64,000 nt of DNA. Origin: Escherichia coli. GTDB taxonomy: Bacteria; Pseudomonadota; Gammaproteobacteria; Enterobacterales; Enterobacteriaceae. The stretch is from assembly GCF_003790525.1 (NCBI RefSeq), contig NZ_CP033635.1; one strand, 5' to 3'. The notes under the pieces were generated by a model. That model worked only from the letters and a program-made list of their open reading frames with translations, searched no databases and had not been told where the DNA came from. Of this stretch, positions 863 through 19,992 are shown piece after piece (position 1 is the stretch's first letter; the number at the start of each line of letters is the position of its first letter). The position numbers and the translations under genes are program-made.

Positions 863-872
863 GGTGATATCG

Positions 873-1208: not shown

Positions 1209-1226
1209 GCCTCGCGGATCAGACAA

Positions 1227-1246
1227 GGGGCTTCGGCCCCTTTATT
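1227..1246 (+). terminator. Intrinsic terminator inside the structural operon (GGGGC-UUCG-GCCCC followed by TTTATT)
   Basis: GC stem with UUCG tetraloop and T-rich tail read directly; placed after the head-proximal genes, analogous in position to the T7 T-phi terminator (established knowledge). Confidence 0.55.
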
Positions 1247-1258
1247 GCAGGAGTGTAT

Positions 1259-4658: not shown

Positions 4659-5122
4659 TGATCGATGTTCGAATTATTCCCGCTACCGAAGAGCATCTTC
4701 AGATGATTTTGCCGGATGTTCGTCAGGCTGATATTGACGAACTGTATGCGGTATCGCTGATGACTACCGAAGATGCGCTGCGCGTTGGTCTGCGCACTGC
4801 GACTATGGCCTGGTCAGGGTTCGCGAACGGAGAACTGGTAACCATGTTTGGTGTATCTCCGGCGTCAATGATCGGTGGCAATGGTACACCCTGGCTGGTC
4901 GGGACCAGCCGTATTGAAAAATATCAGAAGACATTTCTGCGCCACTGCCGCCCTGTATTGCAGCAGATGCTGGCAGTTTATCCGCGCCTGGAAAACTACG
5001 TCGACGAGCGAAACTATGTTGCCAAAGCATGGCTGCACTGGCTTGGATTCAGGCTTGAAGAGGCCGCGCCTTATGGTGCTCTTGGTCTTAATTTCCACAG
5101 ATTTCACATGGAGAGAAAATAA
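4658..5122 (+). CDS. Internal virion protein (gp13-like position)
   Basis: 154 aa; gene order only. Confidence 0.45.
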   Translation: MIDVRIIPATEEHLQMILPDVRQADIDELYAVSLMTTEDALRVGLRTATMAWSGFANGELVTMFGVSPASMIGGNGTPWLVGTSRIEKYQKTFLRHCRPVLQQMLAVYPRLENYVDERNYVAKAWLHWLGFRLEEAAPYGALGLNFHRFHMERK

Positions 5123-5667
5123 TGTGCGATCCGGTTATTGCTGGTGGCGCAATGCTCGCCATGAGTGGCATTCAGGCATACACCCAGTACCAACAGGGAA
5201 AGTATGCCTCGAAGGTTGCAGAAGCGAACGCAGATATAGCCACTGCTCAGGCAAATGATGCAATAAACATAGGTAACGCTGAAGCTGAGCAACGGCGCAG
5301 AGAGACCCGACAGCGGCTTGGTACACAGGCGGCGACAATGGGGGCTACCGGCGCTGATTTATCTACAGGTAACGCGCTGGATATATTTGGCGACACTGCT
5401 CAGTTTGGCGCTCTTGATGCGCTGACGACGGTGAATAACGCGCAACGCGAGGCTTACGGTTATCAGATGCAGGCTGCTAACTATAAAGCAGAAGCCAGTT
5501 CAGCCCGTAAACAGGGGAATGTGGGAGCAGCAACAACATTGCTCACTGCGCCTCTGAAGGCATACGGTGCGTACCAGATGTTTGGTGGGACGTGGAGTCC
5601 GTTTACTCAAAGCACTCCTGCGCCAATCGGGGCAGCAGCAGGAACCAGATTACCCGGAGGATTATAA
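5122..5667 (+). CDS. Internal virion protein (gp14-like)
   Basis: 181 aa, starts MC..., Ala/Gln-rich, same size class and position as T7 gp14. Confidence 0.5.
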   Translation: MCDPVIAGGAMLAMSGIQAYTQYQQGKYASKVAEANADIATAQANDAINIGNAEAEQRRRETRQRLGTQAATMGATGADLSTGNALDIFGDTAQFGALDALTTVNNAQREAYGYQMQAANYKAEASSARKQGNVGAATTLLTAPLKAYGAYQMFGGTWSPFTQSTPAPIGAAAGTRLPGGL

Positions 5668-8180
5668 TGCCAGTCGTACCAACAGTATCCGGACGTCAGG
5701 TTGAGAGCCGTGGAGTTCAGTCAGCAGGCTTGCAGACGTTTTCTCAGCCAGGTATTGGTGATGCTTTTGTTCTGGCAGGGGAAGAGGCAATTGATGTTTT
5801 TGGGCAGGCAAAACAGCGTGCCAATATTGCCTTGGCTCAGGAGGCATCTCTTAACCTCAGTCAGATAAGCAGTGATTTGCTGAATAATCCTGAAACAGGA
5901 TTGCTTAACCTGAAAGGGAAAAATGCTATTGGAAAAGGCCATGAGTATACGCAGCAGTTTGATGCTCAGGTCGAACAATTGGCTATGTCGCTGCCGGATG
6001 AACAGGCTCGTAATGCTTTCATGCAGCAGGCGCAGCAGCAGCGCATTCAGTTCACTACGCAGGCCGGGCGGCACGAGATAGGGCAAATAAATGCCTACGA
6101 AGAAGGCCAGTTTCAGGCGACGCTGCTGAACAATGGTAAAAATGCCGCAGCATTGTATGGCGACAACGCCGCATACGTATTGGCTAATAAGCAAACTTTC
6201 CAGCAAATTGAGGATTACGGCATTGCGCATGGCTGGAGCGACGAGCAAATCCAGGCCAAGAAAATCGAGTTTAAAGAGAAGGTTGCTGATGCCGCATTGT
6301 CCCAGTGGTCGGCAAACAATGCGACCGCATTCATCCAAAGTAATGGCGAGTTAAGTGATACTGCTGCTGGAGCTCGCCGTGCTGTAGCAGATAGTGACTC
6401 TTCCGAGCGTGCCCGTGGCATACGCAACAATAACCCAGGAAATCTCGAATACAGCAAAACTAATCCGTGGGTAGGCCAGACCGGTGATGATGGTCGATTT
6501 GCTAAATTCGAAACACCTGAACACGGGATTCGTGCATTAGGGCGGAACCTGATGTCGTATCAGAGGCAGGGTATTGATACCGTCAGCGAGATAATTAATC
6601 GCTGGGCACCGCCTACTGATAAAAATGACACTATGTCGTATATCAAAGCAGTGTGCGAACAACTTGGCGTTTCTGCTGATGAGCCTCTCGATGCATCTAA
6701 TCCTGATACCCTGAAGGCGCTTTGTGCAGCCATTATCCATCATGAGAACGGTAGCCAGCCATACAGTGATCAGCAGTTAACTGCTGGTGTCAGTGCAGCA
6801 CTTGGTTTATCAACAATTCCAACCAACATCAAACGCTATACCGGTAATGCAGCATTCGATGCGGCATCTCCTGAGGCGCAGGCAAGTTTTATGCGACAGG
6901 CGGATCAACTGCGTCGGCAGCAGCAGGCTGAATATAAAACGATGATTGACAGCCAGGTTCGCGATGCGACAGCTGCGTATATGCGTGGCGTTGAATTTCC
7001 TAACCCACCTGGTGAGGCTGATTTTATTGCAGCTTATGGAGTCAGAGAAGGAAACCTGCGATATACCGAGTTCAGAAATGCGCAAATCGCCGGACAGTAT
7101 ATAGGCTCTTTCCGCAACATGCCGACAAGCAGCATTACATCATATGTTGAGCAATTACGCCCGGATACTGGTGAGACAGGGGAGGGTTATGCGGCACGAG
7201 CCGCTCTTTATGACAACGTTGTGTCGGCTGCAAGTCAGGTGATAAAGCAGCGACAGGCTGATCCTGTACAGTTCTCTCTTGCCGCCGGACAGGCAAAGCC
7301 TATCGACATGAGCAATAAGGATAACTTTGGACAGAGCGTTGCCTTGCGTGCCGCTCAGGTCAGTGACCTTGCTAAGTCATATGGCACTCCACTGACGTTC
7401 TTTTCCAAAGACGAGGCCAATCAGATCGGTGTTTTCTTTCGTGATGCGCCCGTTTCCCAACAGGCAGCATATCTCGATACCATCAGGCAGAGCACTGGTG
7501 GTGGGCAGGTGTATATGTCAGCACTACAGCAGATCAGTGCCAACGCTCCATCTGCTGCCGTTGCCGGGATACTGATGGATAAGCCAGGTGGTATTTTGGC
7601 AGAAAAAAACTGGTTTAATCCGGATGTTTCCGTGTCTCCTGAAACCGCTGCGCAGACAATTCTTGCTGGCGCGGCGGCTCGTAAAGGTACTGATGACGCG
7701 AAAGGTATTCCGATGCCTAAAGATGCTGATCTTCGCCTTGAGTTTTCTGACATGGTGAAGGATGCATTTGCTGGTGATGCTCAGGGGGCATCAATGGCAT
7801 ACGAGATCGCAAAGGACTATTACGCTGGTGTGATGGCGAAAAAAGGCGTGGTATCAGGCGAAATTGACAATGATATCTGGAAACAGGCTGTTAACGTAGC
7901 TACAGGTGGCGTGCATGACTATAACGGAATGGGGAATGTTCTTTTGCCGTGGGGAATGTCTGCAGAGCAATTCGATAAGCAGGTTAATCAGGCTTGGAAT
8001 GAACAAGTTGTTGGCACAGGGATAAAAACACCGCCTGGTCAGTATGGTTTGCAAAGTTACGGCGATAGTCAGTACCTGGTGAAACTTGGTACTGGTTATC
8101 TGCTAAAAGATGATGGTTCTCCCGTTGTTCTTGATCTGACACAGAAGCGTCAGAGATTCTCCGGAGATATTCCGAAATGA
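5667..8180 (+). CDS. Internal virion / ejection protein (gp15-like position), 837 aa
   Basis: Start moved from ORF-track 5592 to ATG 5667, which overlaps the upstream stop (TAATG) and has GGAGG 7 nt upstream; contains a conserved-looking NNPGNL...W...RWAP motif block. Confidence 0.55.
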   Translation: MPVVPTVSGRQVESRGVQSAGLQTFSQPGIGDAFVLAGEEAIDVFGQAKQRANIALAQEASLNLSQISSDLLNNPETGLLNLKGKNAIGKGHEYTQQFDAQVEQLAMSLPDEQARNAFMQQAQQQRIQFTTQAGRHEIGQINAYEEGQFQATLLNNGKNAAALYGDNAAYVLANKQTFQQIEDYGIAHGWSDEQIQAKKIEFKEKVADAALSQWSANNATAFIQSNGELSDTAAGARRAVADSDSSERARGIRNNNPGNLEYSKTNPWVGQTGDDGRFAKFETPEHGIRALGRNLMSYQRQGIDTVSEIINRWAPPTDKNDTMSYIKAVCEQLGVSADEPLDASNPDTLKALCAAIIHHENGSQPYSDQQLTAGVSAALGLSTIPTNIKRYTGNAAFDAASPEAQASFMRQADQLRRQQQAEYKTMIDSQVRDATAAYMRGVEFPNPPGEADFIAAYGVREGNLRYTEFRNAQIAGQYIGSFRNMPTSSITSYVEQLRPDTGETGEGYAARAALYDNVVSAASQVIKQRQADPVQFSLAAGQAKPIDMSNKDNFGQSVALRAAQVSDLAKSYGTPLTFFSKDEANQIGVFFRDAPVSQQAAYLDTIRQSTGGGQVYMSALQQISANAPSAAVAGILMDKPGGILAEKNWFNPDVSVSPETAAQTILAGAAARKGTDDAKGIPMPKDADLRLEFSDMVKDAFAGDAQGASMAYEIAKDYYAGVMAKKGVVSGEIDNDIWKQAVNVATGGVHDYNGMGNVLLPWGMSAEQFDKQVNQAWNEQVVGTGIKTPPGQYGLQSYGDSQYLVKLGTGYLLKDDGSPVVLDLTQKRQRFSGDIPK

Positions 8181-9979
8181 GTTACTTTGGCCTTAATCCA
8201 GTAAACCAGAATCAGCAGCTTGACGAAGCAGCATCAAATCCAGTTGGCTTTAACAGCGATGTTGGTTTTTTCGACAATGCTGTAGGAGCGGCATTGTCTG
8301 GTTTGTACTCCGGGCTGGTGGCAAAGCCTGATCAGTTGCTCTGGGCAGGGATGGATAAAATCGTATCCCCGATTGCTCAGTTTGTTAACGAAAACACCTC
8401 GCTCAATGACACTTCAGTTTCATACATTGCCGAGCAGAGAAAACTAGCAGAGCAGCAGGTTAAGCGGCTGACGCCTGATGCCGCGACAACCGGAACCGCC
8501 GGGCAGGTTCTTTATGGGTTGTTCGATATGGGCGGGCAGGCTGTTATCGGTACAACGCTCGGTGGTCCGGTCGGAGGTGCTGCGGCGGTAACTTCGCTAC
8601 AGGGTTTTTCTGAGTTTGAACGGCTGACAGCACAGGGTGTTGATTTCAGGACGGCGCAGGAAGCGGGATTAGTGCAGGGTATTACTGCTGGTGCCGGAAC
8701 ACTGATCCCTATGAGCCTCGGGTTACGTGCTGGTGGTGCGCTGGCGGAAGGTGTGGCGGCTCAGCTTGCGCGGACGGGTGAAAGTTCAGTGCGACGCGCC
8801 GCAGCAACAGCAGTACGTGCAACGCCAGATATTGCCTATGCCGCAGGTACAAATATTGCGTTCGGTATGGCACAGCGTGGGCTTACTGCAAAAACGCTTC
8901 GTGATGGTGGCTATAGCGAAATGGCTAACCAGTATGATGTGTTGGATCGACAGGCAATTGCTATTGATGCTGTTCTTGGGGTGGCGTTTGGTGGTGTCGG
9001 CAGATTTATTAACTCTCGCGGCGAGTCTACAAGCGCACCAAATTTTTCACCAGTTGATATCGATGCTGCACTGGCGGCGAATGCCGCTCATCATGCTGAA
9101 ATTGATATTGCTCCCGGTGTGCCGATCAACGTGCTTTCGCGTAATTCGCACATTCAGGCTCTGCGAAAAGCCATGTCTGATGTTAGCCAGGGGAGACCTG
9201 TAGACGTTGCCAGCATTGTTGAGTCTGCATCTTTCAGTGAAATTCCTGGGCGCAAGAGTCTGCTTTCTCAGGCAGTTAATGAGGCTCTGTCATCTGTAGA
9301 TGATGGAGTAACGGCGCGCGCTATAGAAAATCGGTTGCTTGAAGAACAGGCCGCGCAGCTTTTGCCGCGTGGCGATAGACAGGTTTACCAGTCTGAAATC
9401 GCTAATAGCCAACGAATTATTGAAAATCTCACTGAACAGCGCGCACAAATTCTTGCAGAAGAGCCAACCGGTAGCGGTAAAGCTTTGTCTCGTGCTCGAT
9501 CAGATAAACAGGCCAGACTTCGCGATATTGATCAACGAATCCGGCAGGCACAAGAACGCCTGGAGTTTTCCCGTAACGCGTTGGCTCCGCACGAGCCTGG
9601 CGGTCAGTTTTTTGAAGCTCGAGCAGAACTGGCACGACGACAGCAGGCAGAAAGTGAACTTAATGCTCAGGCTGTTTCATTCTATAAAACAGCAGAGGTC
9701 AGGACGCCAGACGAAGTAGCTCCTTTTGAGCCCGGTAAGATATTGCAACAGACAGAACAAAAAATGATGGCAGATCCGGCAGGAGATATTGATCTGCGTA
9801 TAGCTGAAGACTCGCTGCTTGAATCTCCGGACATGATAATCACCGTGCTGGATGATGATGGTAATCCACAATCGCGCAGTGCGCGTGAAGTACTGGATGA
9901 AGCGAACAGGGAAAGTGAGCAGGCAATACAGGATTCCAGCCTGTTTGATGTTGCTGTGGCGTGTTTCTTGAGAGGTTAA
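8177..9979 (+). CDS. Internal virion / ejection protein, 600 aa, Gly/Ala-rich
   Basis: ATGA overlap with upstream gene; gene order. Confidence 0.5.
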   Translation: MSYFGLNPVNQNQQLDEAASNPVGFNSDVGFFDNAVGAALSGLYSGLVAKPDQLLWAGMDKIVSPIAQFVNENTSLNDTSVSYIAEQRKLAEQQVKRLTPDAATTGTAGQVLYGLFDMGGQAVIGTTLGGPVGGAAAVTSLQGFSEFERLTAQGVDFRTAQEAGLVQGITAGAGTLIPMSLGLRAGGALAEGVAAQLARTGESSVRRAAATAVRATPDIAYAAGTNIAFGMAQRGLTAKTLRDGGYSEMANQYDVLDRQAIAIDAVLGVAFGGVGRFINSRGESTSAPNFSPVDIDAALAANAAHHAEIDIAPGVPINVLSRNSHIQALRKAMSDVSQGRPVDVASIVESASFSEIPGRKSLLSQAVNEALSSVDDGVTARAIENRLLEEQAAQLLPRGDRQVYQSEIANSQRIIENLTEQRAQILAEEPTGSGKALSRARSDKQARLRDIDQRIRQAQERLEFSRNALAPHEPGGQFFEARAELARRQQAESELNAQAVSFYKTAEVRTPDEVAPFEPGKILQQTEQKMMADPAGDIDLRIAEDSLLESPDMIITVLDDDGNPQSRSAREVLDEANRESEQAIQDSSLFDVAVACFLRG

Positions 9980-9984
9980 ATTAA

Positions 9985-12459
9985 ATGAGACAGGAATGTA
10001 TACAAGCGGTCCAGCAGGCGGCGCAGCGCACGTTAACGGCGCGAGAAATACAGAACATTGAAGACCGCATTTATCGAAATATGCGCTCCATTGCTCGTGA
10101 TGACCCGATGTCGTGGCGACAACTTTCCGAATCAGAACGGTTGTATCGTGCAGCACAATTGGCATCTGAAGAATTACAGCGAGAAGCGGCATTAAAGAAA
10201 CGTCGTGTGGCCCTCACTATAGCCGCACGTCAGAGATTGGATAAATTTATCAATAGCTATCAAGGGGCTGATGGGAAACTTGGCGCTCTTAACCGTACTA
10301 TTGCTTTTAATGCAGACGGTAAATCGAATTTCCTCTCTGTTGAATCCAGAACAAAAGCCACCCGTGATTATGCATTGAGTCAATTGCAGGAGGCATTCGA
10401 AGCAGTTGATCCTCGCTTTTTTGGTCTGTTTGAAGATGAAGCGGGCGTACGTGACCTGGTATATGAAATGCGGGGGCAAAATACTGGCAATGCTAAAGCA
10501 AGAAAAGGTGCTAAGGCGTGGAGAGAAGTTACAGAGCTGCTGCGCCGCCGGTTTAATGATGCTGGTGGGGACATTGGCTATCTCGAAAACTGGGGGATCC
10601 CTCAACATCATTCTATGGAAAAGGTTGGGGCGGTATCAAAGGATAAGTGGGTTAGCGATGTTATAGGTAAGCTGGATCGCAAATATTATACCCGAGCCGA
10701 TGGACAACTGATGAACGATGCCGAGTTGTCTGAATTTCTTGGAGAGGCTTATAACACGATCGCTACTGGTGGGCTGAATAAGCTTACTGATACCGGAATG
10801 CGAATTTCCGGCGCACGTGCTAACCGTGGTAATGCATCACGACAGATACATTTCAAAGATGCAGATTCCTATCTGCAATATCAGCAACTTTATGGCGATC
10901 GCTCTCTATGGGAAATCATGGTCGGTCACCTGGAAGGTATCAGTAAAGATATTGCGCTGGTGGAAACATATGGCCCAAACCCCGATCATGTTTTCCGCTC
11001 CCTTCTTGATCAGGTTAAGGCAGAAACGGCAACAGCTAACCCGAGTAAAACCGGTAGCGTCGAGCGTCTGGCGAACAAAACAGAGAACTTGTACAACTTT
11101 ATTTCCGGAAAAACACAGCCTGTAGCGAATCCGCACATCGCGCGATGGTCTGACAATATCCGCAACTGGCTGGTTGCCAGCAGACTCGGATCCGCGTTGC
11201 TGTCATCGTTCTCTGATCTTGGAACCATGTATCTGTCTGCGAAGGTTACCAACCTTCCAATGAACCAGTTATTTCGCAACCAGCTTGAAGCTATGGACCC
11301 AACGAACCGTACAGAACTTGCGCGGGCGCGCCGCGCTGGCCTGGCGATGGAATCTCTACTTGGCAGCGTTAACCGCTGGGCGATGGATAATATGGGGCCG
11401 TCTGTGTCTCGTTGGGCGGCAACGGCGGTAATGCGTGCCAGTGGGCTTACAGCATGGTCAGATGCGCACAAGCGCGCCTATGGCGTAACCATGATGGGAA
11501 GCCTGGGAGAAGTAGTGTCACGGACACCAGACCTTCGTAGCCTCGATGACTCTGATTTTCGTATCCTGAAAAGCAAAGGGATTACTGACACAGACTGGAG
11601 CGTATGGAAGCTGGCGCAACAGGAGGACTGGGGGAACGGTAATAATACGATGCTGACACCGGAAAGCATTATGCGTATCCCTGATTCAGCAGTTAAACAT
11701 CTTGGTGAGCCTGAACGCGTGAAATTTGAGGCAATGCGTAAACTGCTCGGTGCCGTAACTGAAGAAGTTGATATGGCTGTTATTACACCGGGCGCACGTG
11801 AACAGATGTTCGTAGGGTCTGGTCTTCAGCGTGGAACATGGAAAGGTGAATTAACGAGAAGTGTTTTCCTGTTTAAATCGTTCCCTATCTCGGTAGTTAT
11901 GCGTCACTGGCATAGAGCTATGGGGATGCCGTCTGCTGGTGGGCGTGCGGCATATATAGCAACGTTTTTAGCAAGCACAACCATGCTTGGTGCTCTTTCC
12001 ATGCAGATTACTGATCTTATTAATGGGAGAAATCCAAAAGAAATGACCGGTGACAACATGGTTAAATTCTGGATAAATGCATTTTTAAAAGGTGGTGGGG
12101 CAGGGTTGTATGGTGATTTTCTTTTCTCTGACCACACCAGGTACGGGAGCGGCGCACTAGCGTCGATGCTTGGCCCGGTAGCTGGTCTGGTTGATGACGT
12201 AGTGAAGATTGCTCAGGGCATACCGTTAAATGCTGTGGAAGGGAAGAATGAGCAGACTGGTGGTGATCTGGTTAAGCTTGGGAAAGGTTTGATGCCTGGT
12301 GCGAATCTCTGGTACTTGAAGGCGGCTCTCGATCACATGATCTTTAATCAGATGCAGGAGTATTTTTCACCAGGCTATTTGCGTAAAATGGAGCAACGTT
12401 CGAAGAAAGAGTTTAACCAGACATACTGGTGGCGACCTCAGGATGTCACTCCGCAATAA
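9985..12459 (+). CDS. Internal virion / ejection protein (gp16-like position), 824 aa
   Basis: Last large gene of the structural operon; AGAGG RBS upstream. Confidence 0.5.
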   Translation: MRQECIQAVQQAAQRTLTAREIQNIEDRIYRNMRSIARDDPMSWRQLSESERLYRAAQLASEELQREAALKKRRVALTIAARQRLDKFINSYQGADGKLGALNRTIAFNADGKSNFLSVESRTKATRDYALSQLQEAFEAVDPRFFGLFEDEAGVRDLVYEMRGQNTGNAKARKGAKAWREVTELLRRRFNDAGGDIGYLENWGIPQHHSMEKVGAVSKDKWVSDVIGKLDRKYYTRADGQLMNDAELSEFLGEAYNTIATGGLNKLTDTGMRISGARANRGNASRQIHFKDADSYLQYQQLYGDRSLWEIMVGHLEGISKDIALVETYGPNPDHVFRSLLDQVKAETATANPSKTGSVERLANKTENLYNFISGKTQPVANPHIARWSDNIRNWLVASRLGSALLSSFSDLGTMYLSAKVTNLPMNQLFRNQLEAMDPTNRTELARARRAGLAMESLLGSVNRWAMDNMGPSVSRWAATAVMRASGLTAWSDAHKRAYGVTMMGSLGEVVSRTPDLRSLDDSDFRILKSKGITDTDWSVWKLAQQEDWGNGNNTMLTPESIMRIPDSAVKHLGEPERVKFEAMRKLLGAVTEEVDMAVITPGAREQMFVGSGLQRGTWKGELTRSVFLFKSFPISVVMRHWHRAMGMPSAGGRAAYIATFLASTTMLGALSMQITDLINGRNPKEMTGDNMVKFWINAFLKGGGAGLYGDFLFSDHTRYGSGALASMLGPVAGLVDDVVKIAQGIPLNAVEGKNEQTGGDLVKLGKGLMPGANLWYLKAALDHMIFNQMQEYFSPGYLRKMEQRSKKEFNQTYWWRPQDVTPQ

Positions 12460-12468
12460 GGAACAACA

Positions 12469-12882
12469 ATGAAGGAATTATTGCTGTTATCGGTATTTTT
12501 GATATCCGCTTGCTCGACATCCTATGATGTTTATGACGGTGTTGATAAGGCATATTGCGACAAAGTTAAAATGGATTTTTCTCTTGCCAAGACGGCGAAG
12601 GATAGTTGTATTGATCACTACGTCAAGACTTATACCAAGCCAGCCTCATCGGCATCTGATATTGCTGAAGGTGCTGTGTTTGAGTGTAACAAGGTGATAT
12701 CCATCGCAGCGAGTTCTTCATACGATGCTGCTGTATGTGCAATGGCTGAAAGAAACGGCATGTCAGTGCAAAAAATTAATAGCATGATAAGCAGTAATGA
12801 CGAAGCCAAAATAAGAACTGATATCAGCTCGGTGAAAAAAGATGCCATGAACAGAGTTGTAAAATATCAGTCATCTTTATAA
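12469..12882 (+). CDS. Prophage lipoprotein (signal peptide with lipobox L-I-S-A-C), 137 aa, AT-rich gene
   Basis: N-terminus MKELLLLSVFLISAC read directly; AAGGA RBS; sits at the start of the accessory island. Confidence 0.65.
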   Translation: MKELLLLSVFLISACSTSYDVYDGVDKAYCDKVKMDFSLAKTAKDSCIDHYVKTYTKPASSASDIAEGAVFECNKVISIAASSSYDAAVCAMAERNGMSVQKINSMISSNDEAKIRTDISSVKKDAMNRVVKYQSSL

Positions 12883-12897
12883 GTCGTGACATGTCAC

Positions 12898-12922
12898 AGG
12901 CCGCTTTCGCGGCCTTGTTTTT
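12898..12922 (+). terminator. Intrinsic terminator of the structural operon / lipoprotein gene
   Basis: AGGCCGC-TTTC-GCGGCCT hairpin followed by TGTTTTT. Confidence 0.6.
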
Positions 12923-13082
12923 AACGAATGCCACCGCCACCCGGGCGGGAATCCGCAGAACGCCCACCGCAGCGGGAGCCGTCAGCAGCAGTGTCGCTGT
13001 CGTGCTGACAACGACCGGCAAAGGCCTGAGTTGAAGCTACCAGAGACAACAAAACGAACAGTGCAGCAAATGCTTTTTTCAT
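12921..13082 (-). CDS. Candidate small secreted peptide (53 aa, Sec signal MKKAFAALFVLLSLVASTQAFA, two Cys)
   Basis: Internal ATG of the 77-aa ORF; convincing signal peptide but weak RBS; possible TTGACG / TATAGA promoter just upstream. Confidence 0.3.
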   Translation of the reverse strand: MKKAFAALFVLLSLVASTQAFAGRCQHDSDTAADGSRCGGRSADSRPGGGGIR

Positions 13083-13154
13083 TGTGAAATTTCCATCTAT
13101 AAGCCACCTCAATGTGGCGTCAATGAGTGTAGCACTGACTTTTGTTTCGCCCAC

Positions 13155-13176
13155 AAAAAAGCCCGCAGCGCGGGCT
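13155..13176 (-). terminator. Intrinsic terminator of the cargo operon
   Basis: AGCCCGC-GCU-GCGGGCU hairpin followed by six U on the - strand; overlaps the stop codon at 13175. Confidence 0.6.
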
Positions 13177-13615
13177 ATTCTTCTTCATCATTAAAAAGCG
13201 GATTGTTGTTTCCATCTGATGAAAGGAAAGGTATGTGTTCTCTTGAAAATCCAACAATGACAATTTCATTATCATTTTTTGCATAATGAATGCATTCATT
13301 AGAATGCCTTCCGCCAGGGTTGAAATTTAAGTTAATGGTATAATTCTTAAATGTGTTTGGATACCATGTTGGCCCACAATGATAATGCCAATAATTCTCT
13401 TGCTCATAATTGTCTGAGCCGGGAATTTTATCATGGTTATCATCAACCCACGAGGGCTTGTTTTTTCCAACAAGCGCCCTTCCATTGGCAACATCCTCTA
13501 AAAAACTTTGTATGATTTTTATTTCATCATCAGTAAGGAAAGGTCCGTCTACAGCGAAAGGGGTGTTGCTTTCCCCATGTAGAAAACTATTAGATATTCT
13601 AATGTTAAACTTCAA
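13175..13615 (-). CDS. Hypothetical cargo protein, about 146 aa, low GC, Asn-rich, no recognised domain
   Basis: Probable TTG start at 13615 with AGGAG RBS 6 nt upstream, 20 nt after the stop of the 55-aa ORF; ORF track shows a longer frame from 13756 that overlaps the upstream gene. Confidence 0.5.
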   Translation of the reverse strand: MKFNIRISNSFLHGESNTPFAVDGPFLTDDEIKIIQSFLEDVANGRALVGKNKPSWVDDNHDKIPGSDNYEQENYWHYHCGPTWYPNTFKNYTINLNFNPGGRHSNECIHYAKNDNEIVIVGFSREHIPFLSSDGNNNPLFNDEEE

Positions 13616-13635
13616 GGAAAACTCCTGATGTGCTT

Positions 13636-13803
13636 CTATTTGGAGCGAAATGCCGCCTTGAAGTCGCTGAAAGATGTTCCTGTCTGGTAAACCATATCCT
13701 TGTCGCGCTCTTTGCTTGCGCGGCCAAGCATAACTTTTCCAATGACATCCCAGCATTGCTTGGCTTGTTCATTGTGCTGAGTACGATTTTTCAACGCTGT
13801 CAT
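13636..13803 (-). CDS. Small protein (55 aa), first gene of the cargo operon; possible regulator or antitoxin-like partner
   Basis: ATG with AGGAGG RBS 6 nt upstream, placed immediately downstream of promoter P_A; translated by hand. Confidence 0.5.
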   Translation of the reverse strand: MTALKNRTQHNEQAKQCWDVIGKVMLGRASKERDKDMVYQTGTSFSDFKAAFRSK

Positions 13804-13815
13804 ATCGCGCCTCCT

Positions 13816-13858
13816 TTACCTTTAAGGTAATAGTACGCTATTCACCCACAGTCTGCAA
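13816..13858 (-). promoter_or_regulatory. Promoter P_A (-35 TTGCAG at 13853-13858, 17-bp spacer, -10 TACTAT at 13830-13835) with operator copy A (TTACC-TTTAA-GGTAA, 13816..13830)
   Basis: Hexamers and the 15-bp palindrome read directly; the operator abuts the -10 and the RBS. Confidence 0.55.
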
Positions 13859-13867
13859 TCTGTACAG

Positions 13868-13894
13868 AATTATTTAAAGGCACATCCCTGTGCC
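13868..13894 (-). terminator. Terminator-like hairpin after the antirepressor-like gene (GGCACA-GGGA-TGTGCC then TTTAAATAATT)
   Basis: Hairpin read directly; T-rich but interrupted tail. Confidence 0.45.
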
Positions 13895-13902
13895 GCCGCC
13901 CG

Positions 13903-14589
13903 TCAGAAGAACCCAGCCTTGTCGTTGATGTACTCCGCGTGGGTCTGGATATCACGCAGGCATTTGCTCACACCAACAATGTAGCAGAACATGGTGGTCA
14001 GCTCCGCCGCCGCGCCCGATACGTCGTGCCCGTCTTCCTGTAACTGGTTCAGCAGATTCATCAGCAGTGAGTTCTCCGTCAGGCCGAGAACACCAGACGG
14101 AGAATGAATCAGGCTGCGGTAGCCGGGCTTCAGTGGGGCACTGTAGGTTTTGTTCTCTATCTTCATTGCCTGCATCACTGCTGATGCTGTGGCGTTGGCT
14201 ACCTGGTCGGCAACTATCTTTATGCGTTCTTCCTGCGGGAGCGAGTTTTTAATGTAACTTCCGGTGCGGCGGATCTGAGGAAGAACCTCACCTGTAACCC
14301 ATTTACGAAAGCGGTAGGGGATAGTGCCTGGTGTCACTGCGTCGCGGCAGCGGAGGATCAGTGTGTAGAGGCCTGACTCGTTGATAATATTGGTTTCACC
14401 TTGACGGCCTAAGTTAAATTTAGCCCTTTCATCATCATCAAGAGATTTTATTGACATAGTGGGGTTTGTCAGTTGAAGAGCTTTAATAACGTCTTTGGCA
14501 ACAAACCAAGGATTTCCATCAATAACAATGGCTCGAATGGTGGCTTCTGATTCAAAATGAAAAACAGATGGGGTTACGTTAGCAGTCAT
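13903..14589 (-). CDS. Antirepressor-like protein with N-terminal BRO-N / AntA-type domain, 228 aa
   Basis: Motifs FHFE...IR..IDG.PWFVAKDV and ESGLY.LI read in the translation (BRO-N family, from memory); start set at ATG 14589 with AAGGTGA RBS rather than ORF-track 14742, which has no RBS and a Gly/Cys-rich non-protein-like extension. Confidence 0.8.
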   Translation of the reverse strand: MTANVTPSVFHFESEATIRAIVIDGNPWFVAKDVIKALQLTNPTMSIKSLDDDERAKFNLGRQGETNIINESGLYTLILRCRDAVTPGTIPYRFRKWVTGEVLPQIRRTGSYIKNSLPQEERIKIVADQVANATASAVMQAMKIENKTYSAPLKPGYRSLIHSPSGVLGLTENSLLMNLLNQLQEDGHDVSGAAAELTTMFCYIVGVSKCLRDIQTHAEYINDKAGFF

Positions 14590-14742
14590 AGTGATCACCT
14601 TTGTAGTTAGGTTAATCACCACTACCGACGCCAATCGGTTGGTGGTGAACTGTGCAGGGTTGGCGTAACCGGCTACAAAGGACCCGGCGCACCTTTCGGT
14701 GCCCCCACACAGCCCACCATAGAATAGGTGCGCTTTACACAT

Positions 14743-14761
14743 AAAAAAACCGCTTATGCGG
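14743..14761 (-). terminator. Short intrinsic terminator or attenuator in the leader of the antirepressor-like gene (CCGC-AUAA-GCGG followed by seven U)
   Basis: Read on the - strand; stem is only 4-5 bp, so call is tentative. Confidence 0.4.
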
Positions 14762-14855
14762 CATATGTGCCTCTGTAGTAACCCGGGACGCCAATCCCGG
14801 CACTGGATTTTGCCAGTGCCCGATTACTATGGCACAAGAGGAGTGCGATGTAAAT

Positions 14856-14898
14856 TTACCGAAAAGGTAATAATAAACACTCTACTTGGTAATTGCAA
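14856..14898 (-). promoter_or_regulatory. Promoter P_B (-35 TTGCAA at 14893-14898, 17-bp spacer, -10 TATTAT at 14870-14875) with operator copy B (TTACC-GAAAA-GGTAA, 14856..14870)
   Basis: Near-consensus sigma70 hexamers with exact 17-bp spacing; palindrome overlaps the -10 and start site. Confidence 0.6.
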
Positions 14899-14901
14899 AC
14901 C

Positions 14902-15159
14902 TTATCTGGTTTGTTTTCGTAATTGTTCGGCACAATAGTCGAGATGTGTTTGCAGATCCCGCATAGACATCTGTGAGCTGGTGACGTAGTTAATCAGTGC
15001 AGTCAGTTCGGCAAGTGGGCCATCGACATTAAATCCATCCTTATCGAGATCCCGGAGTAATTTCATCAAGTGCGATCCCTCCACCAGTGACCTGACGCCT
15101 CCCGGCGTGTGAATCCTTTCGGTAAATCCGTCTTCCAGTGGATAGTGATACTGCTGCAT
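14902..15159 (-). CDS. Small protein (85 aa) paralogous to the C-terminal domain of the adjacent antirepressor-like protein; candidate SOS-controlled small antirepressor
   Basis: By-eye alignment with the last ~70 aa of the 228-aa protein shows about 40 percent identity; ATG 15159 with GGAG RBS; LexA box directly upstream. Confidence 0.6.
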   Translation of the reverse strand: MQQYHYPLEDGFTERIHTPGGVRSLVEGSHLMKLLRDLDKDGFNVDGPLAELTALINYVTSSQMSMRDLQTHLDYCAEQLRKQTR

Positions 15160-15178
15160 CTTATCTTCTCCATGCAAT

Positions 15179-15198
15179 AACTGTATATTTATACAGTA
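15179..15198. promoter_or_regulatory. LexA (SOS) box AACTGTATATTTATACAGTA
   Basis: 18 of 20 positions match the consensus TACTGTATATATATACAGTA including both CTGT and ACAG arms; located immediately upstream of the 85-aa gene. Confidence 0.65.
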
Positions 15199-15235
15199 TC
15201 AAATAATTTGTTTGCTATCCAGCACGTTTTGCAAA

Positions 15236-15250
15236 TTACCCGAAAGGTAA
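15236..15250. promoter_or_regulatory. Operator copy C (TTACC-CGAAA-GGTAA) in the divergent region between the 85-aa gene and the tailspike gene, next to a TTGCAA hexamer (15229-15234)
   Basis: Third copy of the 15-bp palindrome; promoter partner hexamers not clearly assignable. Confidence 0.45.
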
Positions 15251-15354
15251 TATCTATTCGTATTTACAGTCTTTCTATCCATATGTGGTTTTTCAGGTAA
15301 TAGAATAACCAGATATGCGGCGCAACGGGTGCTGCGACTATCTGGAGATTTAAC

Positions 15355-17544
15355 ATGACGGTCTCAACCGAAGTTGACCACAACGAATACACCGGTAACG
15401 GCGTTACGACATCATTTCCGTATACCTTCCGTATTTTCAAAAAAACCGACCTGGTTGTTCAGGTGTCTGACCTGAACGGGAACGTAACAGAATTGGTTCT
15501 GGATACCGGTTATAAGGTAACTGGAGCGGGCACTTATAGTGGCGGTGAAGTGGTTCTCCAGTCGCCGCTTGCTGCTGGCTGGCGAATTACGATAGAGCGT
15601 GTGCTTGATGTGGTGCAGGAGACTGATCTTCGCAATCAGGGAAAATTTTTCCCCGAAGTTCATGAAGATGCATTTGACTACCTGACGATGCTGATCCAGC
15701 GATGTTTTGGGTGGTTCAGACGTGCATTGATGAAACCATCTTTGCTTGCAAAATATTACGATGCAAAGCAAAACAAAATTTCTAACCTTGCAGATCCATC
15801 ATTTGAGCAGGACGCTGTAAATAATCGCTCAATGCGTAATTATGTCGATGCTGCAATCGCCGGGGTTGTTGGTGGTTTTGGTTGGTTTATACCGTCAGGA
15901 AGCGGGGCAAGACAACGAACATTTCAAAGCAAAATGAGGGATATAATTTCTCCTTGTGATTACGAAGATAATATTTTTATGATTAAGGAGTTGATATCCA
16001 AAGGCAAAAATGCCGCTGTTTTTAACTCATATTATACTTTTGTTATTACTGTTGGCGAATGGGGTGATTTCCCTACACTCAAAGATGCAATCATTGCAGC
16101 CCAGTCAATGAGACCTATGTGGGATGGTGGTAATGCTTTCTGCGAAATAAGAATTAAGACCGGGCATATTATCAACTATCAAATTGAATTCAGTTCAGGT
16201 GTTGATTTGTCTTGGATTAAAATAACATCAGAAGACTCAGTGGTTTTCTCTGACACTCGTTTGTTTACTAAAATCGTTAGAACGTATTACGAATACAAGT
16301 ATTTATTTTACATTTGCGATGCAGCAAAAAGTCCTGTATTTGCTATTCAGATCGAAGAAAATAGAGATGATAGCGATGTTTGTGCATTTATTGTAACTCA
16401 AAAAGCTGAACTTAATTTCTATCCGTATTCAGGTGCTCGAAAGTTCTACGTTGGAATTCATGGTAGTTTTGGTGCAAAAATTAGTGCATATCATACCGGA
16501 TGTGCTCCTGATGAGGAAAGTGTTGCTGCATATATGCCAGAAGGGTATTACGTATGTGATTTTTCTTATAGCAGATACTCTTCCCTGCAACTGGTAAATA
16601 ATGTCAAGGCATCAATGCCTGTAAGCAAGTTTGAACGGTGCACAGAGAGTACGGTTGCGTCAGTTAATTGTATTTATAATGTTAAAGCAGATTTTCAGGG
16701 GTCAAGTGCAAGCTATTGTTATATAGGATGGAATGTAAGAGATGGTTCAAATGTTAATATACGCGACCATAAAACTATACATTGCTCATATCGTGGATTA
16801 ACCTGCATTCATACAGCATATGTTGATGCAAGACGACATGACGTTGAAGAAAGTGATGCAGAAACAAGTGGTAAAGTCCTTGAACCAAATATTGAAAAAG
16901 GTTTTTATGGATGTGCACTTGGTGTGCGTATTGATGGTGCGGGTTGCGTTGATGTTGCTGGTAATGATATGCGCAATTGTGGAACAGCCGTTAATGCAGA
17001 CACTGGTGCTGTTATTTCAGGAAAGGCTGTAGATATCTCAGGGGCTGAGCTGGGATTTGATTGCCATGCAGGAGCATCTGTTAATTTTCCAAGGCTATGG
17101 GGTACAGATATAAAAAAATTAATGCACCTCCAAGATGGTGTAAGGTTTAACTCTAATATTTGTCATGTATTTGGTGCAAATCCCACAAAAGATATTAGAT
17201 GGATTGATGTAGAGAGATCTGAAGCTTCTTTTATGAATGCAACGCTGGATGCAGATTCAGGATTTATTGCCGACTGTGGTAGTAGGATAACCATTGAAGG
17301 AAGTAAAGTTAAAAACCAAACAATAAGAAGTTTTTTTGGATCATATGTGGCTATAAATAATACTGTTGCTGACAGAACTTATTCAGATATAGCCGATGTT
17401 CCGCAGTTGACTATTAGTGGAGGATCTTTTATTTCTGCTACAGGATATTCTAATTCTGACTCCAGCCCTCTGAGGTTGAGCACAACACGAAATACACTTG
17501 GCGTTGGAGGAGCCATATTTTCAACCAATGGGGAAGTTTCATGA
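15355..17544 (+). CDS. Tailspike / tail fiber protein, 729 aa: conserved N-terminal virion-attachment domain plus divergent C-terminal receptor-binding part
   Basis: N-terminus carries the YTGNGVTT.F.Y.F pattern typical of podovirus tail fiber or tailspike adapters (from memory); C-terminal two thirds are AT-rich and Cys-rich; GGAG RBS 7 nt upstream. Confidence 0.7.
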   Translation: MTVSTEVDHNEYTGNGVTTSFPYTFRIFKKTDLVVQVSDLNGNVTELVLDTGYKVTGAGTYSGGEVVLQSPLAAGWRITIERVLDVVQETDLRNQGKFFPEVHEDAFDYLTMLIQRCFGWFRRALMKPSLLAKYYDAKQNKISNLADPSFEQDAVNNRSMRNYVDAAIAGVVGGFGWFIPSGSGARQRTFQSKMRDIISPCDYEDNIFMIKELISKGKNAAVFNSYYTFVITVGEWGDFPTLKDAIIAAQSMRPMWDGGNAFCEIRIKTGHIINYQIEFSSGVDLSWIKITSEDSVVFSDTRLFTKIVRTYYEYKYLFYICDAAKSPVFAIQIEENRDDSDVCAFIVTQKAELNFYPYSGARKFYVGIHGSFGAKISAYHTGCAPDEESVAAYMPEGYYVCDFSYSRYSSLQLVNNVKASMPVSKFERCTESTVASVNCIYNVKADFQGSSASYCYIGWNVRDGSNVNIRDHKTIHCSYRGLTCIHTAYVDARRHDVEESDAETSGKVLEPNIEKGFYGCALGVRIDGAGCVDVAGNDMRNCGTAVNADTGAVISGKAVDISGAELGFDCHAGASVNFPRLWGTDIKKLMHLQDGVRFNSNICHVFGANPTKDIRWIDVERSEASFMNATLDADSGFIADCGSRITIEGSKVKNQTIRSFFGSYVAINNTVADRTYSDIADVPQLTISGGSFISATGYSNSDSSPLRLSTTRNTLGVGGAIFSTNGEVS

Positions 17545-17837
17545 TTAAGAGCATTGATGTCACTCCATTTCTTCACTCGCTTTGCGCTTTTGCGGCTCAG
17601 GTACTGGTTGGTATTTTTACCGGAAACTGGGCTTACGGTGCGATAGCCGGTTGTACGTTCTTCATTGCGCGTGAACACACCCAGGCAGAATATCGCTGGA
17701 TAGAAAAGTTTGGGAAAGGGAAACGTATCAACATGCCGTGGTGGGGAGGTTTTGATCCACGCGTGTGGGATGTGGGAAGTCTGTTGGATTTTGCTGTTCC
17801 TGTTGTTTTTTGTTTTTGTGTTTATTTCTCTATTTGA
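17541..17837 (+). CDS. Small membrane protein (98 aa, two hydrophobic helices)
   Basis: ATGA overlap with the tailspike stop; hydrophobic stretches in translation. Confidence 0.5.
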   Translation: MIKSIDVTPFLHSLCAFAAQVLVGIFTGNWAYGAIAGCTFFIAREHTQAEYRWIEKFGKGKRINMPWWGGFDPRVWDVGSLLDFAVPVVFCFCVYFSI

Positions 17838-18039
17838 CTGCTACCGCGCCATTAAATGGTGCGGTATTCAACCTGCTCTTCACTGTTTGTTTCTTCAGAG
17901 TCATGTAAAAGGTGAGCTTTATTCTCGGCATGAAAAACAGGGAATTGACGATGTTAAAGTAACAAAAAACCATAAATGGTTTATTATGCGTAATGCTTTA
18001 CTGTTCAGGAGGTTGTTATGCATATAAACGGTGGAAAAC

Positions 18040-18444
18040 ATGTCAGCTCAACTAACCAGTGAAACTTTAAATCAGTGGCTTAGCATGAGTTCTCTGGCGG
18101 CGGTGATAGCAGGAGTTCCTCCTGAGGTTGCTTTGGGTGCTTTGGCTGGAGCGGTAATTTTTGTTACCTCTGCAGTAGAGTACCCCATCCGTCGCCGGGT
18201 GCTCCTGTCGATGCTCAGCTTTCTTTGCGGCCTTCTCTTTTACAAACCAGCAGCATCAATTCTTATCGGCATAGCCAGCCTGATCCCTACCATCACGCAG
18301 GACTCTTTTGAAAAAGGGATTGTTTTCTCTGCAGGCGCATTCGTGTCAGCAATTGTCGCTGTGCGTATTGGTATATGGCTCTATCACCGTTCCGATAATC
18401 CACGCGAGTTAATTCCGGGGAGAAAAGACGATGGTAACGCATGA
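18040..18444 (+). CDS. Membrane protein, holin or antiholin candidate (in-frame alternative start GTG 18031)
   Basis: Several predicted transmembrane stretches; two in-frame starts three codons apart (GTG-GAA-AAC-ATG). Confidence 0.45.
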   Translation: MSAQLTSETLNQWLSMSSLAAVIAGVPPEVALGALAGAVIFVTSAVEYPIRRRVLLSMLSFLCGLLFYKPAASILIGIASLIPTITQDSFEKGIVFSAGAFVSAIVAVRIGIWLYHRSDNPRELIPGRKDDGNA

Positions 18445-18739
18445 GTTTTTTTTGCTTATCACCAATGCAGTTATTTGCACTGGCATAGCAATTCGCGTTG
18501 TCACATTCCGGCGTAACGGCTCTCAACACCGAAGGTGGGGAGGATGGCTTGCTTATTTCCTGATTGTTGCTGCGGCCAGTATTCCTGTTCGTGTCGCCTA
18601 TGCAATCTGGTTACGTACGCCAATGGCTGTGGATTTATCTGAGGTCATTATCAACGCTGTCATGCTAGCTGCGGTTATTAAAACGCGCGGTAACGTCGTT
18701 CAAATTTTCAAAGTATCGAGGTCTAAACATGGAGATTAA
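18431..18739 (+). CDS. Holin candidate (102 aa, 2-3 transmembrane helices) immediately upstream of the endolysin
   Basis: Position and hydrophobicity pattern; overlaps neighbours at both ends. Confidence 0.5.
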
Positions 18740-19358
18740 ACAATTCCAGCGAGCTGCTGGTATCAGCGAGGCACTGGCCGCACGCTGGTTCTCGCATATA
18801 ACTTCTGCGATGAAAGAGTTTGGTATCAGCAAACCAGAAGATCAGGCTATGTTTATTGCTCAGGTCGGGCATGAGTCTGGAGGCTTCACCCGGTTGCAGG
18901 AGAATTTCAACTACAGCGTCAGCGGACTGGCTAACTTTGTTCGGGCTGGGCGTCTCACTCAGGGACAGGCCAACGCATTGGGGCGACGTGCAGGCGAACC
19001 ACCATTGCCACTTGAGCGCCAGAGAGCGATTGCCAATCTGGTGTACAGCAAACGCATGGGGAACAATGCCCCTGGTGATGGCTGGAACTACCGTGGGCGC
19101 GGGCTTATCCAGGTTACCGGTTTGAATAACTATCGTGACTGTGGAAACGGTCTTAAGGTTGACCTGCTGGAGAGTCCTGAACTGCTGGCGCAGGACGAAT
19201 ACGCGGCTCGTAGCGCGGCGTGGTTCTTTGCCAGCAAAGGATGCATGAAGTATACCGGCGATATTGCACGTGTAACTCTGATTATCAATGGTGGCCGGAA
19301 CGGCATCGACGACCGGCGCGCGCGATACATCAATGCCAGTAAGGTGCTGGCGGTATGA
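18729..19358 (+). CDS. Endolysin, glycoside hydrolase family 19 (chitinase-like) type
   Basis: Motifs [18 protein letters not shown] and NYRD read in the translation, recalled as GH19-type phage lysozyme signatures; position between holin and Rz. Confidence 0.8.
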
Positions 19359-19837: not shown

Positions 19838-19992
19838 CATGGTATTTTTCATGGCACTGATTTCCGGTGACGGTATATAAAACGGTACGGGAAAAGTTGA
19901 GCTTTGGAAAAATGTTATCACTCAATTGGTTATGGTGTCCGTGAATAATTGAGTGGGAATGATTTTGATCCCTGCACTATGAATGAACAAAA

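What the first reader, a model, noticed from the sequence alone, without database searches (positions are those of the whole stretch)
15179..15198. Near-consensus LexA box directly upstream of the 85-aa antirepressor-domain gene
Seen: AACTGTATATTTATACAGTA matches the SOS-box consensus TACTGTATATATATACAGTA at 18 of 20 positions with both CTGT and ACAG arms intact, 20 nt upstream of ATG 15159. Established knowledge: LexA-repressed antirepressors trigger induction of prophages whose repressors are not RecA-cleavable. Inference: DNA damage derepresses this small protein, which then acts on the prophage repressor.
Basis: partly seen in the sequence, partly recalled or inferred. Interest (0 to 1): 0.75.

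Follow-up and report, generated by a model that had tools for sequence, protein, structure and literature searches.

The report
SOS-controlled antirepressor of phiV10-like prophage
A genuine, very strong LexA (SOS) operator sits on the promoter of a small antirepressor gene in an epsilon15/phiV10-like E. coli prophage, but it is the E. coli copy of the LexA-Ant-Rep induction switch already worked out in Salmonella phage SPC32H, so it is real but ordinary.

Summary
AACTGTATATTTATACAGTA at 15179-15198 is the only site in the 64 kb within 3 mismatches of the LexA consensus (0 of 100 shuffles). Its heterology index is about 1.2-1.8, like the tightest E. coli SOS boxes; the next best site in the window scores 12.2.

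The 85-aa gene downstream (14902-15159, minus strand) is 87% identical over its full length to Ant of Salmonella phage SPC32H, whose structure in complex with its repressor is solved (PDB 5D50). The window holds the right half of a phiV10-like (Uetakevirus) prophage integrated at guaA.

The box, its position 17-20 nt before the ATG, and a TGGATA-17-TGnTACTGT promoter that it overlaps are conserved across eight Uetakeviruses and in 77 of 80 close relatives. SPC32H and its derivative SPC32N differ in this region only by ACAG to AAAG in the homologous box and one tailspike base.

The cognate repressor lies outside the window in the source genome. It matches SPC32H Rep and has only HTH domains, with no peptidase domain.

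Found in passing: a second, IsrK/C4-RNA-gated BRO-N antirepressor next door, whose C-terminus is a paralog of Ant.

The parts
15179..15198 (.). LexA operator (SOS box): AACTGTATATTTATACAGTA, or TACTGTATAAATATACAGTT in the ant orientation
   Evidence: unique in the window; HI 1.2-1.8. Arms are invariant in 8 Uetakeviruses and in 77 of 80 close relatives, with variation only in the 8-nt spacer.
15216..15221 (-). Inferred -35 hexamer TGGATA of the ant promoter
   Evidence: Positions. T, G, G, A and the final A are invariant in alignment A1. It lies 17 nt from the inferred -10. Inference only; not mapped. The generic promoter scan did not call it.
15193..15201 (-). Inferred extended -10 (TGaTACTGT). 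The TACTGT hexamer is the left arm of the LexA box
   Evidence: for positions. TG and TA..TGT are invariant in A1. This places the box over -12 to about +8. Inference.
15165..15171 (-). Shine-Dalgarno GGAGAAG, 5 nt before the ATG
   Evidence: GGAG is invariant in A1.
14902..15159 (-). ant: 85-aa antirepressor, ortholog of SPC32H Ant
   Evidence: PDB 5d50_E, E 1.4e-46 over residues 2-84; phrog_450, E 7e-48; PGAP CDS WP_001188254.1.
15236..15250 (.). Palindrome TTACCCGAAAGGTAA, the probable operator of the phage repressor Rep, between the ant promoter and the tailspike gene
   Evidence: 3 exact copies between 13816 and 15250; with up to 1 mismatch, 7 matches in the window against 1.2 expected. 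Conserved in A1. The homologous epsilon15 site is annotated 'protein_bind repressor'. The motif clusters around rep in epsilon15, SPC32H, phiV10 and the source genome.
14856..14899 (-). Neighbouring module: promoter-like TTTGCA-18-TATTAT abutting a second Rep-operator-like palindrome, TTACCTTTTCGGTAA (14856-14870)
14743..14819 (-). Neighbouring module: IsrK-like small RNA with an intrinsic terminator. It overlaps a c4-a1b1 target motif at 14780-14832
   Evidence: Rfam RF01394 74.7 bits (gathering score 50); RF03163 44.1 bits (gathering score 46.7). Terminator.
14638..14724 (-). Neighbouring module: C4-type antisense RNA
   Evidence: Rfam RF01695 79.5 bits (gathering score 45), full length.
13903..14589 (-). 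Neighbouring module: 228-aa BRO-N antirepressor whose C-terminal ~80 aa are a paralog of the small Ant
   Evidence: phrog_130/245 'anti-repressor Ant' and phrog_450; 41% identity to small Ant, E 2e-16; PGAP CDS; 82% identical to ZX5 ORF4.

Best explanation
This is the SOS input of the lysis-lysogeny switch of an epsilon15/phiV10-like (Uetakevirus) prophage integrated at the 3' end of guaA.

In the lysogen, host LexA binds the near-consensus box. The box overlaps the extended -10 and the start site of the ant promoter, so ant stays silent. DNA damage activates RecA, LexA cleaves itself, and ant is transcribed. The 85-aa Ant protein then binds the phage repressor Rep, a two-HTH protein without a self-cleavage domain that is encoded about 20 kb away, outside the window. 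Rep comes off its ATTACC-N5-GGTAAT operators and lytic genes are expressed.

Shown here: the site, its strength, its conservation, the orthology of Ant and Rep to the solved SPC32H pair, and the domain content of Rep. Taken from the literature: LexA control and Ant-Rep binding in SPC32H. Inferred: the exact promoter hexamers, and that the E. coli Ant binds the E. coli Rep.
For: - The site is unique and as strong as the best E. coli SOS boxes.
- Ant is 87% identical to SPC32H Ant, solved in complex with Rep (PDB 5D50). SPC32H annotates the gene as 'ant' at the same locus.
- Alignment of 8 Uetakeviruses from E. coli, Salmonella, Enterobacter and Klebsiella keeps the box, the TGGATA, the TG and the SD invariant in otherwise 74%-identical DNA.
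- 77 of 80 close relatives keep CTGT-N8-ACAG 19-20 nt before the ATG, and substitutions fall only in the spacer.
- SPC32H and SPC32N differ in the 3.2-kb region by two bases. One changes ACAG to AAAG in the box and raises HI from about 3 to about 7. This agrees with my recollection of Kim and Ryu 2013, that this mutation makes Ant constitutive.
- The Rep homolog in the 100%-identical source genome is 43% identical to SPC32H Rep, hits 5d50_A at E 3.5e-42, and has HTH Pfam domains only.
- E. coli phage ZX5 has the identical 20-mer box and an Ant identical at 84 of 85 residues. Its lysogens rise from 1e7 to 1e9 PFU/mL with mitomycin C (PMC9782041).
- General mechanism: PMC7380047 and PMC3121763.
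Against: - No experiment on this E. coli element exists in the material I could read. The two primary SPC32H papers (PMC3807360, PMC4983836) were not held, so their content rests on memory, on secondary citations and on database records.
- Rep is only 43% identical to SPC32H Rep while Ant is 87% identical, so cognate binding is inferred, not shown.
- The promoter hexamers are weak matches (4/6 and 3/6 plus TG), and the generic scan did not call them.
- A second antirepressor lies next door, so the small Ant need not be the only route to induction.
Confidence: 0.9

Rival explanations
1. The LexA box is functional, but in this E. coli lineage the small Ant is accessory. Induction would then depend mainly on the neighbouring BRO-N antirepressor (13903-14589) or on another route, because the E. 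coli Rep has diverged from the SPC32H Rep that Ant is known to bind.
For: Rep is only 43% identical to SPC32H Rep. The BRO-N protein carries its own Ant-like C-terminal domain. Overexpressing the ZX5 ortholog lowered the prophage titre from 1e9 to 1e6 (PMC9782041).
Against: Ant and its box are under strong purifying selection in the same E. coli lineage: 98-100% protein identity and invariant arms in 77 of 80 loci. Epsilon15-type and phiV10-type Reps differ equally, yet both lineages keep Ant at 83-87% identity. The BRO-N module is absent from SPC32H and epsilon15, and in phiV10 the Ant query matched only one place, so its BRO-N protein carries no detectable Ant-like domain.
Confidence: 0.06
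2. The box controls the divergent tailspike and lysis transcription unit (ATG 15355) rather than, or in addition to, ant.
For: The box lies in the 195-nt divergent intergenic region, 157 nt from the tailspike ATG.
Against: The box sits at a fixed 17-20 nt from the ant ATG across the genus, while the distance to the tailspike gene varies. It overlaps the conserved ant-direction TGGATA-17-TGnTACTGT. A separate conserved Rep-operator palindrome lies nearer the tailspike side. The SPC32N box mutation goes with an antirepressor phenotype (recollection of Kim and Ryu 2013).
Confidence: 0.03
3. A chance AT-rich palindrome with no regulatory role.
For: None beyond the AT-richness of the intergenic region.
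Against: None in 100 shuffles. There is an HI gap of 10 units to the next site. The arms are invariant while the spacer varies. The site is conserved across four host genera.
Confidence: 0.01

Closest known systems
Salmonella phage SPC32H LexA-Ant-Rep switch (Kim and Ryu 2013, J Virol 87:11775; Kim et al. 2016, PNAS 113:E2480; PDB 5D50, 5D4Z)
   Same: Same genus (Uetakevirus). The Ant ortholog is 87% identical over its full length. Same locus, between the last virion gene and the divergent tailspike. The LexA box is at the homologous position. The Rep homolog has the same two-HTH architecture. The Rep-operator palindrome is the same.
   Different: The host is E. coli. The box is closer to consensus (HI 1.2-1.8 against 2.8-3.7). 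Rep is only 43% identical. This prophage carries an extra ~2.4-kb insert directly downstream of ant (window 12469-14901), holding an IsrK/C4-gated BRO-N antirepressor and small cargo genes. SPC32H lacks that insert.
Coliphage 186 Tum (LexA-repressed promoter; Tum binds the CI repressor)
   Same: Same logic: a non-cleavable repressor, and a small antirepressor whose promoter is held by LexA (PMC7380047; details from my own knowledge).
   Different: A P2-like myovirus. No sequence relationship was detected or expected: Ant has no Pfam or NCBIfam family. The SPC32H authors described Ant as structurally distinct from the sipho- and myovirus antirepressors (my recollection of the abstract).
Gifsy-1 and Gifsy-3 antirepressors GfoA and GfhA (Lemire et al. 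2011, PMC3121763)
   Same: Small antirepressors encoded outside the immunity region and under direct LexA control. The repressors are not cleaved.
   Different: Lambdoid siphoviruses with unrelated proteins. Cross-talk between prophages was shown there and not examined here.
P22 immI (Ant controlled by Mnt and Arc) and P1 immI (C4 RNA, icd, ant)
   Same: An antirepressor region located between virion genes and the tailspike, as in P22. The neighbouring module here has the P1-type C4 antisense RNA and a1b1 targets upstream of a BRO-N/Ant gene.
   Different: Those antirepressors are not LexA-controlled. The small Ant studied here is. The comparison rests on my own knowledge plus the Rfam hits.

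Membership tests
SPC32H-type Ant (Uetakevirus small antirepressor, phrog_450) | Full-length sequence homology to SPC32H Ant (86 aa) | tested here: met
   phmmer against PDB 5d50_E: E 1.4e-46, residues 2-84 of 85. tblastn: 86.7% identity to the SPC32H ant gene. phrog_450: E 7e-48.
SPC32H-type Ant (Uetakevirus small antirepressor, phrog_450) | Genomic position: minus-strand gene between the last virion gene and the divergent tailspike of an epsilon15-like genome | tested here: met
   Window 1-12462 is 97.6% identical to phiV10 6877-19338. ant and the tailspike follow as in phiV10 and SPC32H. attR core at 19948-19964.
SPC32H-type Ant (Uetakevirus small antirepressor, phrog_450) | LexA box overlapping the ant promoter | tested here: met
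   The box aligns column for column with the SPC32H box, whose ACAG to AAAG change distinguishes SPC32N. HI 1.2-1.8. Promoter overlap is inferred from the conserved TGGATA-17-TGnTACTGT.
SPC32H-type Ant (Uetakevirus small antirepressor, phrog_450) | Cognate Rep-type repressor without an autocleavage (S24 peptidase) domain in the same phage | tested here: met
   Not in the window. In the 100%-identical source genome NZ_CP178552.1 the prophage encodes a 194-aa protein that is 43% identical to SPC32H Rep, hits 5d50_A at E 3.5e-42, and has HTH_3/HTH_26 Pfam domains only.
SPC32H-type Ant (Uetakevirus small antirepressor, phrog_450) | Ant physically binds Rep and releases it from operator DNA | not testable with these tools
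   Needs pull-down or EMSA. Only the SPC32H complex is solved.
E. coli SOS regulon (LexA-repressed promoters) | 16-mer CTGT-N8-ACAG core with a low heterology index, placed over the core promoter | tested here: met
   The HI matrix was built from 25 sites recalled from memory, so absolute values are approximate. The rank is robust.
E. coli SOS regulon (LexA-repressed promoters) | LexA binding in vitro and RecA/LexA-dependent induction in vivo | not testable with these tools
   Indirect only: ZX5 lysogens with the identical box are mitomycin C inducible.
Phage 186 Tum / Gifsy GfoA-type antirepressors | Sequence homology to Tum or GfoA | not tested
   No direct comparison was run. Ant matched no Pfam or NCBIfam family. 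I file it as 'works like', not as a member.

The most novel reading that the evidence does not exclude
In E. coli Uetakevirus prophages the SOS-gated small Ant may be only the trigger of a two-stage antirepressor cascade. Once Ant lifts Rep, a promoter whose -10 abuts a Rep-operator palindrome (14856-14899) would open. It would drive an IsrK/C4-RNA-gated BRO-N protein whose C-terminal domain is a paralog of Ant. That protein would then also sequester Rep, giving positive feedback that makes induction irreversible after LexA recovers. Read-through from the ant promoter, which has no terminator before the IsrK terminator at 14749-14762, could couple the two stages directly.
Probability: 0.3. Interest if true: 0.45.

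Novelty: already known. Interest (0 to 1): 0.15.

Why it matters
The finding explains how this guaA-integrated prophage family senses DNA damage without a cleavable repressor. Region 12400-15400 has megablast matches in 1029 of 5426 complete E. coli genomes, but only 19 of them cover at least 80% of it.

The practical value is for annotation. The ant gene is labelled 'hypothetical protein' in RefSeq, in phiV10 and in ZX5, and no Pfam or NCBIfam model covers it. The published ZX5 study of repressor and antirepressor looked only at the neighbouring BRO-N gene.

It does not open a new question. The mechanism and the structure are published for the Salmonella ortholog.

Tried and rejected
- **Papers not held.** Reading the primary papers failed: PMC3807360 (Kim and Ryu 2013), PMC4983836 (Kim et al. 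2016) and PMC2698709 (epsilon15 genome) are not held. I relied on secondary citations, on GenBank and PDB records, and on a direct SPC32H/SPC32N comparison.
- **No curated family.** Pfam and NCBIfam have no family for Ant.
- **Rep not in the window.** Looking for Rep in the window by tblastn gave nothing, because the window starts inside the capsid genes. Rep was found in the source genome instead.
- **Promoter scan.** The generic promoter scan did not report the ant promoter. The assignment rests on conservation.
- **Other CTGT-N8-ACAG matches.** The matches at 388 and 63247 scored HI 16 or above (not listed by the scan), so they are not LexA sites.
- **Start codon.** The TTG at 15177 (91-aa ORF) was rejected as the start. 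It lies upstream of the SD, and both PGAP and the orthologs start at ATG 15159.
- **Cargo genes.** PADLOC and NCBIfam gave nothing for the neighbouring cargo genes.
- **Weak Rfam hit.** A Trp_leader hit at 13153-13259 (21.5 bits, E 0.37) is noise.

Full report
**1. The observation**

Window 15179-15198 reads AACTGTATATTTATACAGTA. This matches the 20-nt LexA consensus at 18 positions, and both CTGT and ACAG arms are intact. It is the only site in the 64 kb within three mismatches of the consensus, and none appeared in 100 dinucleotide-preserving shuffles. The bare CTGT-N8-ACAG pattern is not significant alone, with 3 found against 0.72 expected.

I built a Berg-von Hippel/Lewis-type heterology index from 25 E. 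coli SOS boxes recalled from memory, so absolute values are approximate. The site scores 1.2-1.8, level with umuDC, recN and dinD. The next best 20-mer in the window scores 12.2.

The box ends 19 nt before ATG 15159, and a GGAGAAG Shine-Dalgarno lies in between. PGAP calls the same 85-aa CDS in the source genome.

**2. What the gene is**

The 85-aa product matches chain E of PDB 5D50, named 'Anti-repressor protein', at E 1.4e-46 over residues 2-84. That chain is Ant of Salmonella phage SPC32H, where the gene is annotated 'ant'.

No Pfam or NCBIfam family covers the protein. PHROGs places it in phrog_450, and it matches the C-terminal part of phrog_1760 'anti-repressor' weakly.

**3. Where we are**

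- Window 1-12462 is 97.6% identical to phiV10 6877-19338, and the lysis genes follow up to 19964.
- The attachment core ATTGAGTGGGAATGATT, reported for phiV10, epsilon15 and ZX5 (PMC9782041), sits at 19948-19964.
- The window therefore holds the right half of a Uetakevirus (epsilon15-like podovirus) prophage, followed by host DNA.
- The sequence is 100% identical to E. coli WWCOL-236, NZ_CP178552.1. There the prophage runs on to an integrase next to guaA.

**4. Conservation**

I aligned the ant-tailspike intergenic region of the window with phiV10, SPC32H, epsilon15, Tyrion, BUCT554, BUCT711 and Kp4865. Mean identity is 74%. The following stay invariant: TG.TA.TGT......ATACAGT, an upstream TGGA.A, the GGAG of the SD, and a palindrome TTACC-N5-GGTAA.

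Read in the ant direction this gives TGGATA, 17 nt, then TGaTACTGT. That is a -35 and an extended -10 whose hexamer is the left arm of the box. LexA would then cover roughly -12 to +8. This promoter assignment is inference. The generic scan did not call it.

In 80 close relatives from IMG/VR, 77 keep CTGT-N8-ACAG 19-20 nt before the ATG, and all sequence variation lies in the 8-nt spacer. The three exceptions are two contig-end artefacts and one IS insertion.

In a Klebsiella-centred sample, 65 of 71 loci carry a box with the left arm ATGT (ATATGTATAT..ATACAGT.), 17-19 nt before the ATG. HI is 7.3 for the commonest form and up to about 10. That is weaker, but still within the range of the 25 recalled E. 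coli sites.

**5. Link to function**

SPC32H and SPC32N differ in the 3.2-kb region at two bases. One is in the tailspike gene. The other changes ACAG to AAAG in the box and raises HI from about 3 to about 7.

This agrees with my recollection of the Kim and Ryu 2013 abstract. As I recall it, the two genomes differ by two nucleotides, the LexA-site mutation overlaps the ant promoter and makes Ant constitutive, and Rep is not cleaved but is inactivated by Ant. I could not open that paper.

A held review states the general point and cites it (PMC7380047). Another paper summarises the structural work: Rep binds DNA as a tetramer, and tetrameric Ant binds two Rep dimers (PMC9638917).

**6. The partner**

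Rep is not in the window. In the source genome a 194-aa protein, in the immunity region next to a divergently transcribed 76-aa gene, is 43% identical to SPC32H Rep, matches 5d50_A at E 3.5e-42, and has HTH domains only.

Its flanks carry three copies of the TTACC-N5-GGTAA motif, one exact and two near-matches. Epsilon15's RefSeq record annotates the same motif as 'repressor' binding sites, including the one next to ant.

E. coli phage ZX5 has the identical 20-nt box and an Ant identical at 84 of 85 residues. Its lysogens go from 1e7 to 1e9 PFU/mL with mitomycin C (PMC9782041).

**7. Mechanism and rivals**

The best explanation, at 0.9 confidence, is:

1. LexA holds the ant promoter shut.
2. 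DNA damage leads to LexA self-cleavage, and ant is transcribed.
3. Ant sequesters the non-cleavable Rep.
4. Rep leaves its operators and lytic genes are expressed.

The rivals are:

- Ant is accessory in E. coli because Rep has diverged and a second antirepressor exists (0.06).
- The box serves the divergent tailspike promoter (0.03).
- The palindrome is chance (0.01).

**8. Comparison and novelty**

This element meets every membership criterion of the SPC32H Ant family that I could test. It works like 186 Tum and the Gifsy GfoA/GfhA antirepressors (PMC3121763) without being related to them.

It is already known as a system. What is missing is only annotation and direct tests in E. coli. Interest is low.

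**9. Seen in passing**

Directly downstream of ant lies a P1-immI-like module:

- a promoter-like site whose -10 abuts a Rep-operator palindrome;
- an IsrK-like RNA with terminator, a c4-a1b1 motif, and a full-length C4 antisense RNA;
- a 228-aa BRO-N antirepressor whose C-terminus is 41% identical to the small Ant.

Seventy of the 80 close relatives carry the RNA region. The same '-10 plus palindrome' cassette precedes a 55-aa ORF at 13636-13803.

An ISL3-family element sits exactly in the LexA box in four related loci.

Noticed in passing
window 13903-14901, minus strand: A second antirepressor module of the P1 immI type lies directly downstream of ant. It comprises a promoter-like TTTGCA-18-TATTAT (14870-14899), an IsrK-like sRNA with terminator (14743-14819, 74.7 bits), a c4-a1b1 motif (14780-14832, 44.1 bits, just under gathering), a C4 antisense RNA (14638-14724, 79.5 bits), and a 228-aa BRO-N antirepressor (13903-14589). 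The C-terminal ~80 aa of that protein are a paralog of the small Ant (41% identity, E 2e-16). The RNA region is present in 70 of 80 close relatives. It is absent from SPC32H and epsilon15..
   Followed up: partly
window 13816-13830, 14856-14870, 15236-15250: Three exact TTACC-N5-GGTAA palindromes, one upstream of each leftward transcription unit. With up to 1 mismatch the window has 7 matches against 1.2 expected. The motif is annotated as a repressor-binding site in epsilon15 and clusters around rep in all Uetakeviruses checked. Two of the three copies abut a -10-like hexamer (TATTAT|TACC, TACTAT|TACC), which suggests Rep-repressed promoters. What the copy next to the ant promoter controls (tailspike, ant or both) is unresolved..
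   Followed up: partly
window 12469-13803: Cargo inserted between the last virion gene and the antirepressor region, relative to SPC32H. It comprises a 137-aa gene with a lipoprotein-like N-terminus (12469-12882, +, phrog_8691), a 53-aa gene with a signal-peptide-like N-terminus (12921-13082, -), a 146-aa gene (13175-13615, -, phrog_5954) and a 55-aa gene with a strong SD (13636-13803, -). All are 'hypothetical', with no NCBIfam or PADLOC hit..
   Followed up: partly
L087 ~1-1170; L103, L110, L116 (related IMG/VR loci): An ISL3-family insertion sequence (transposase NF033550, E 1e-85) is inserted exactly within the ant LexA box in one E. coli-type and three Klebsiella-type loci, in both orientations. 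The junction reads GAAGACCC|ATA(A/T)A(C/T)ATACAGT. It separates ant from its promoter and from the left arm of the box, and would uncouple the prophage from SOS..
   Followed up: partly
L093-L167 (Klebsiella-type Uetakevirus loci): In the Klebsiella-centred lineage the homologous box has the left arm ATGT instead of CTGT (ATATGTATAT..ATACAGT.) in 65 of 71 loci, across Ant proteins 54-100% identical to Kp4865 Ant. HI is 7.3 for the commonest form and up to about 10, against 1.2 in E. coli. This may be a lineage-specific lower LexA affinity, that is, a lower induction threshold..
   Followed up: no
window 19948-19964: The prophage attachment core ATTGAGTGGGAATGATT marks the right end of the prophage. 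Window 19965-64000 is host chromosome. In the source genome the other end lies at the 3' end of guaA..
   Followed up: yes
L088 and L074 (IMG/VR contigs): Two of the three apparent 'box-less' relatives are contig-end artefacts. L074 is truncated inside the box. L088 continues into what looks like a sequencing-adapter-like string (AGATGTGTATAAGAGACAG; identified from my recollection)..
   Followed up: no
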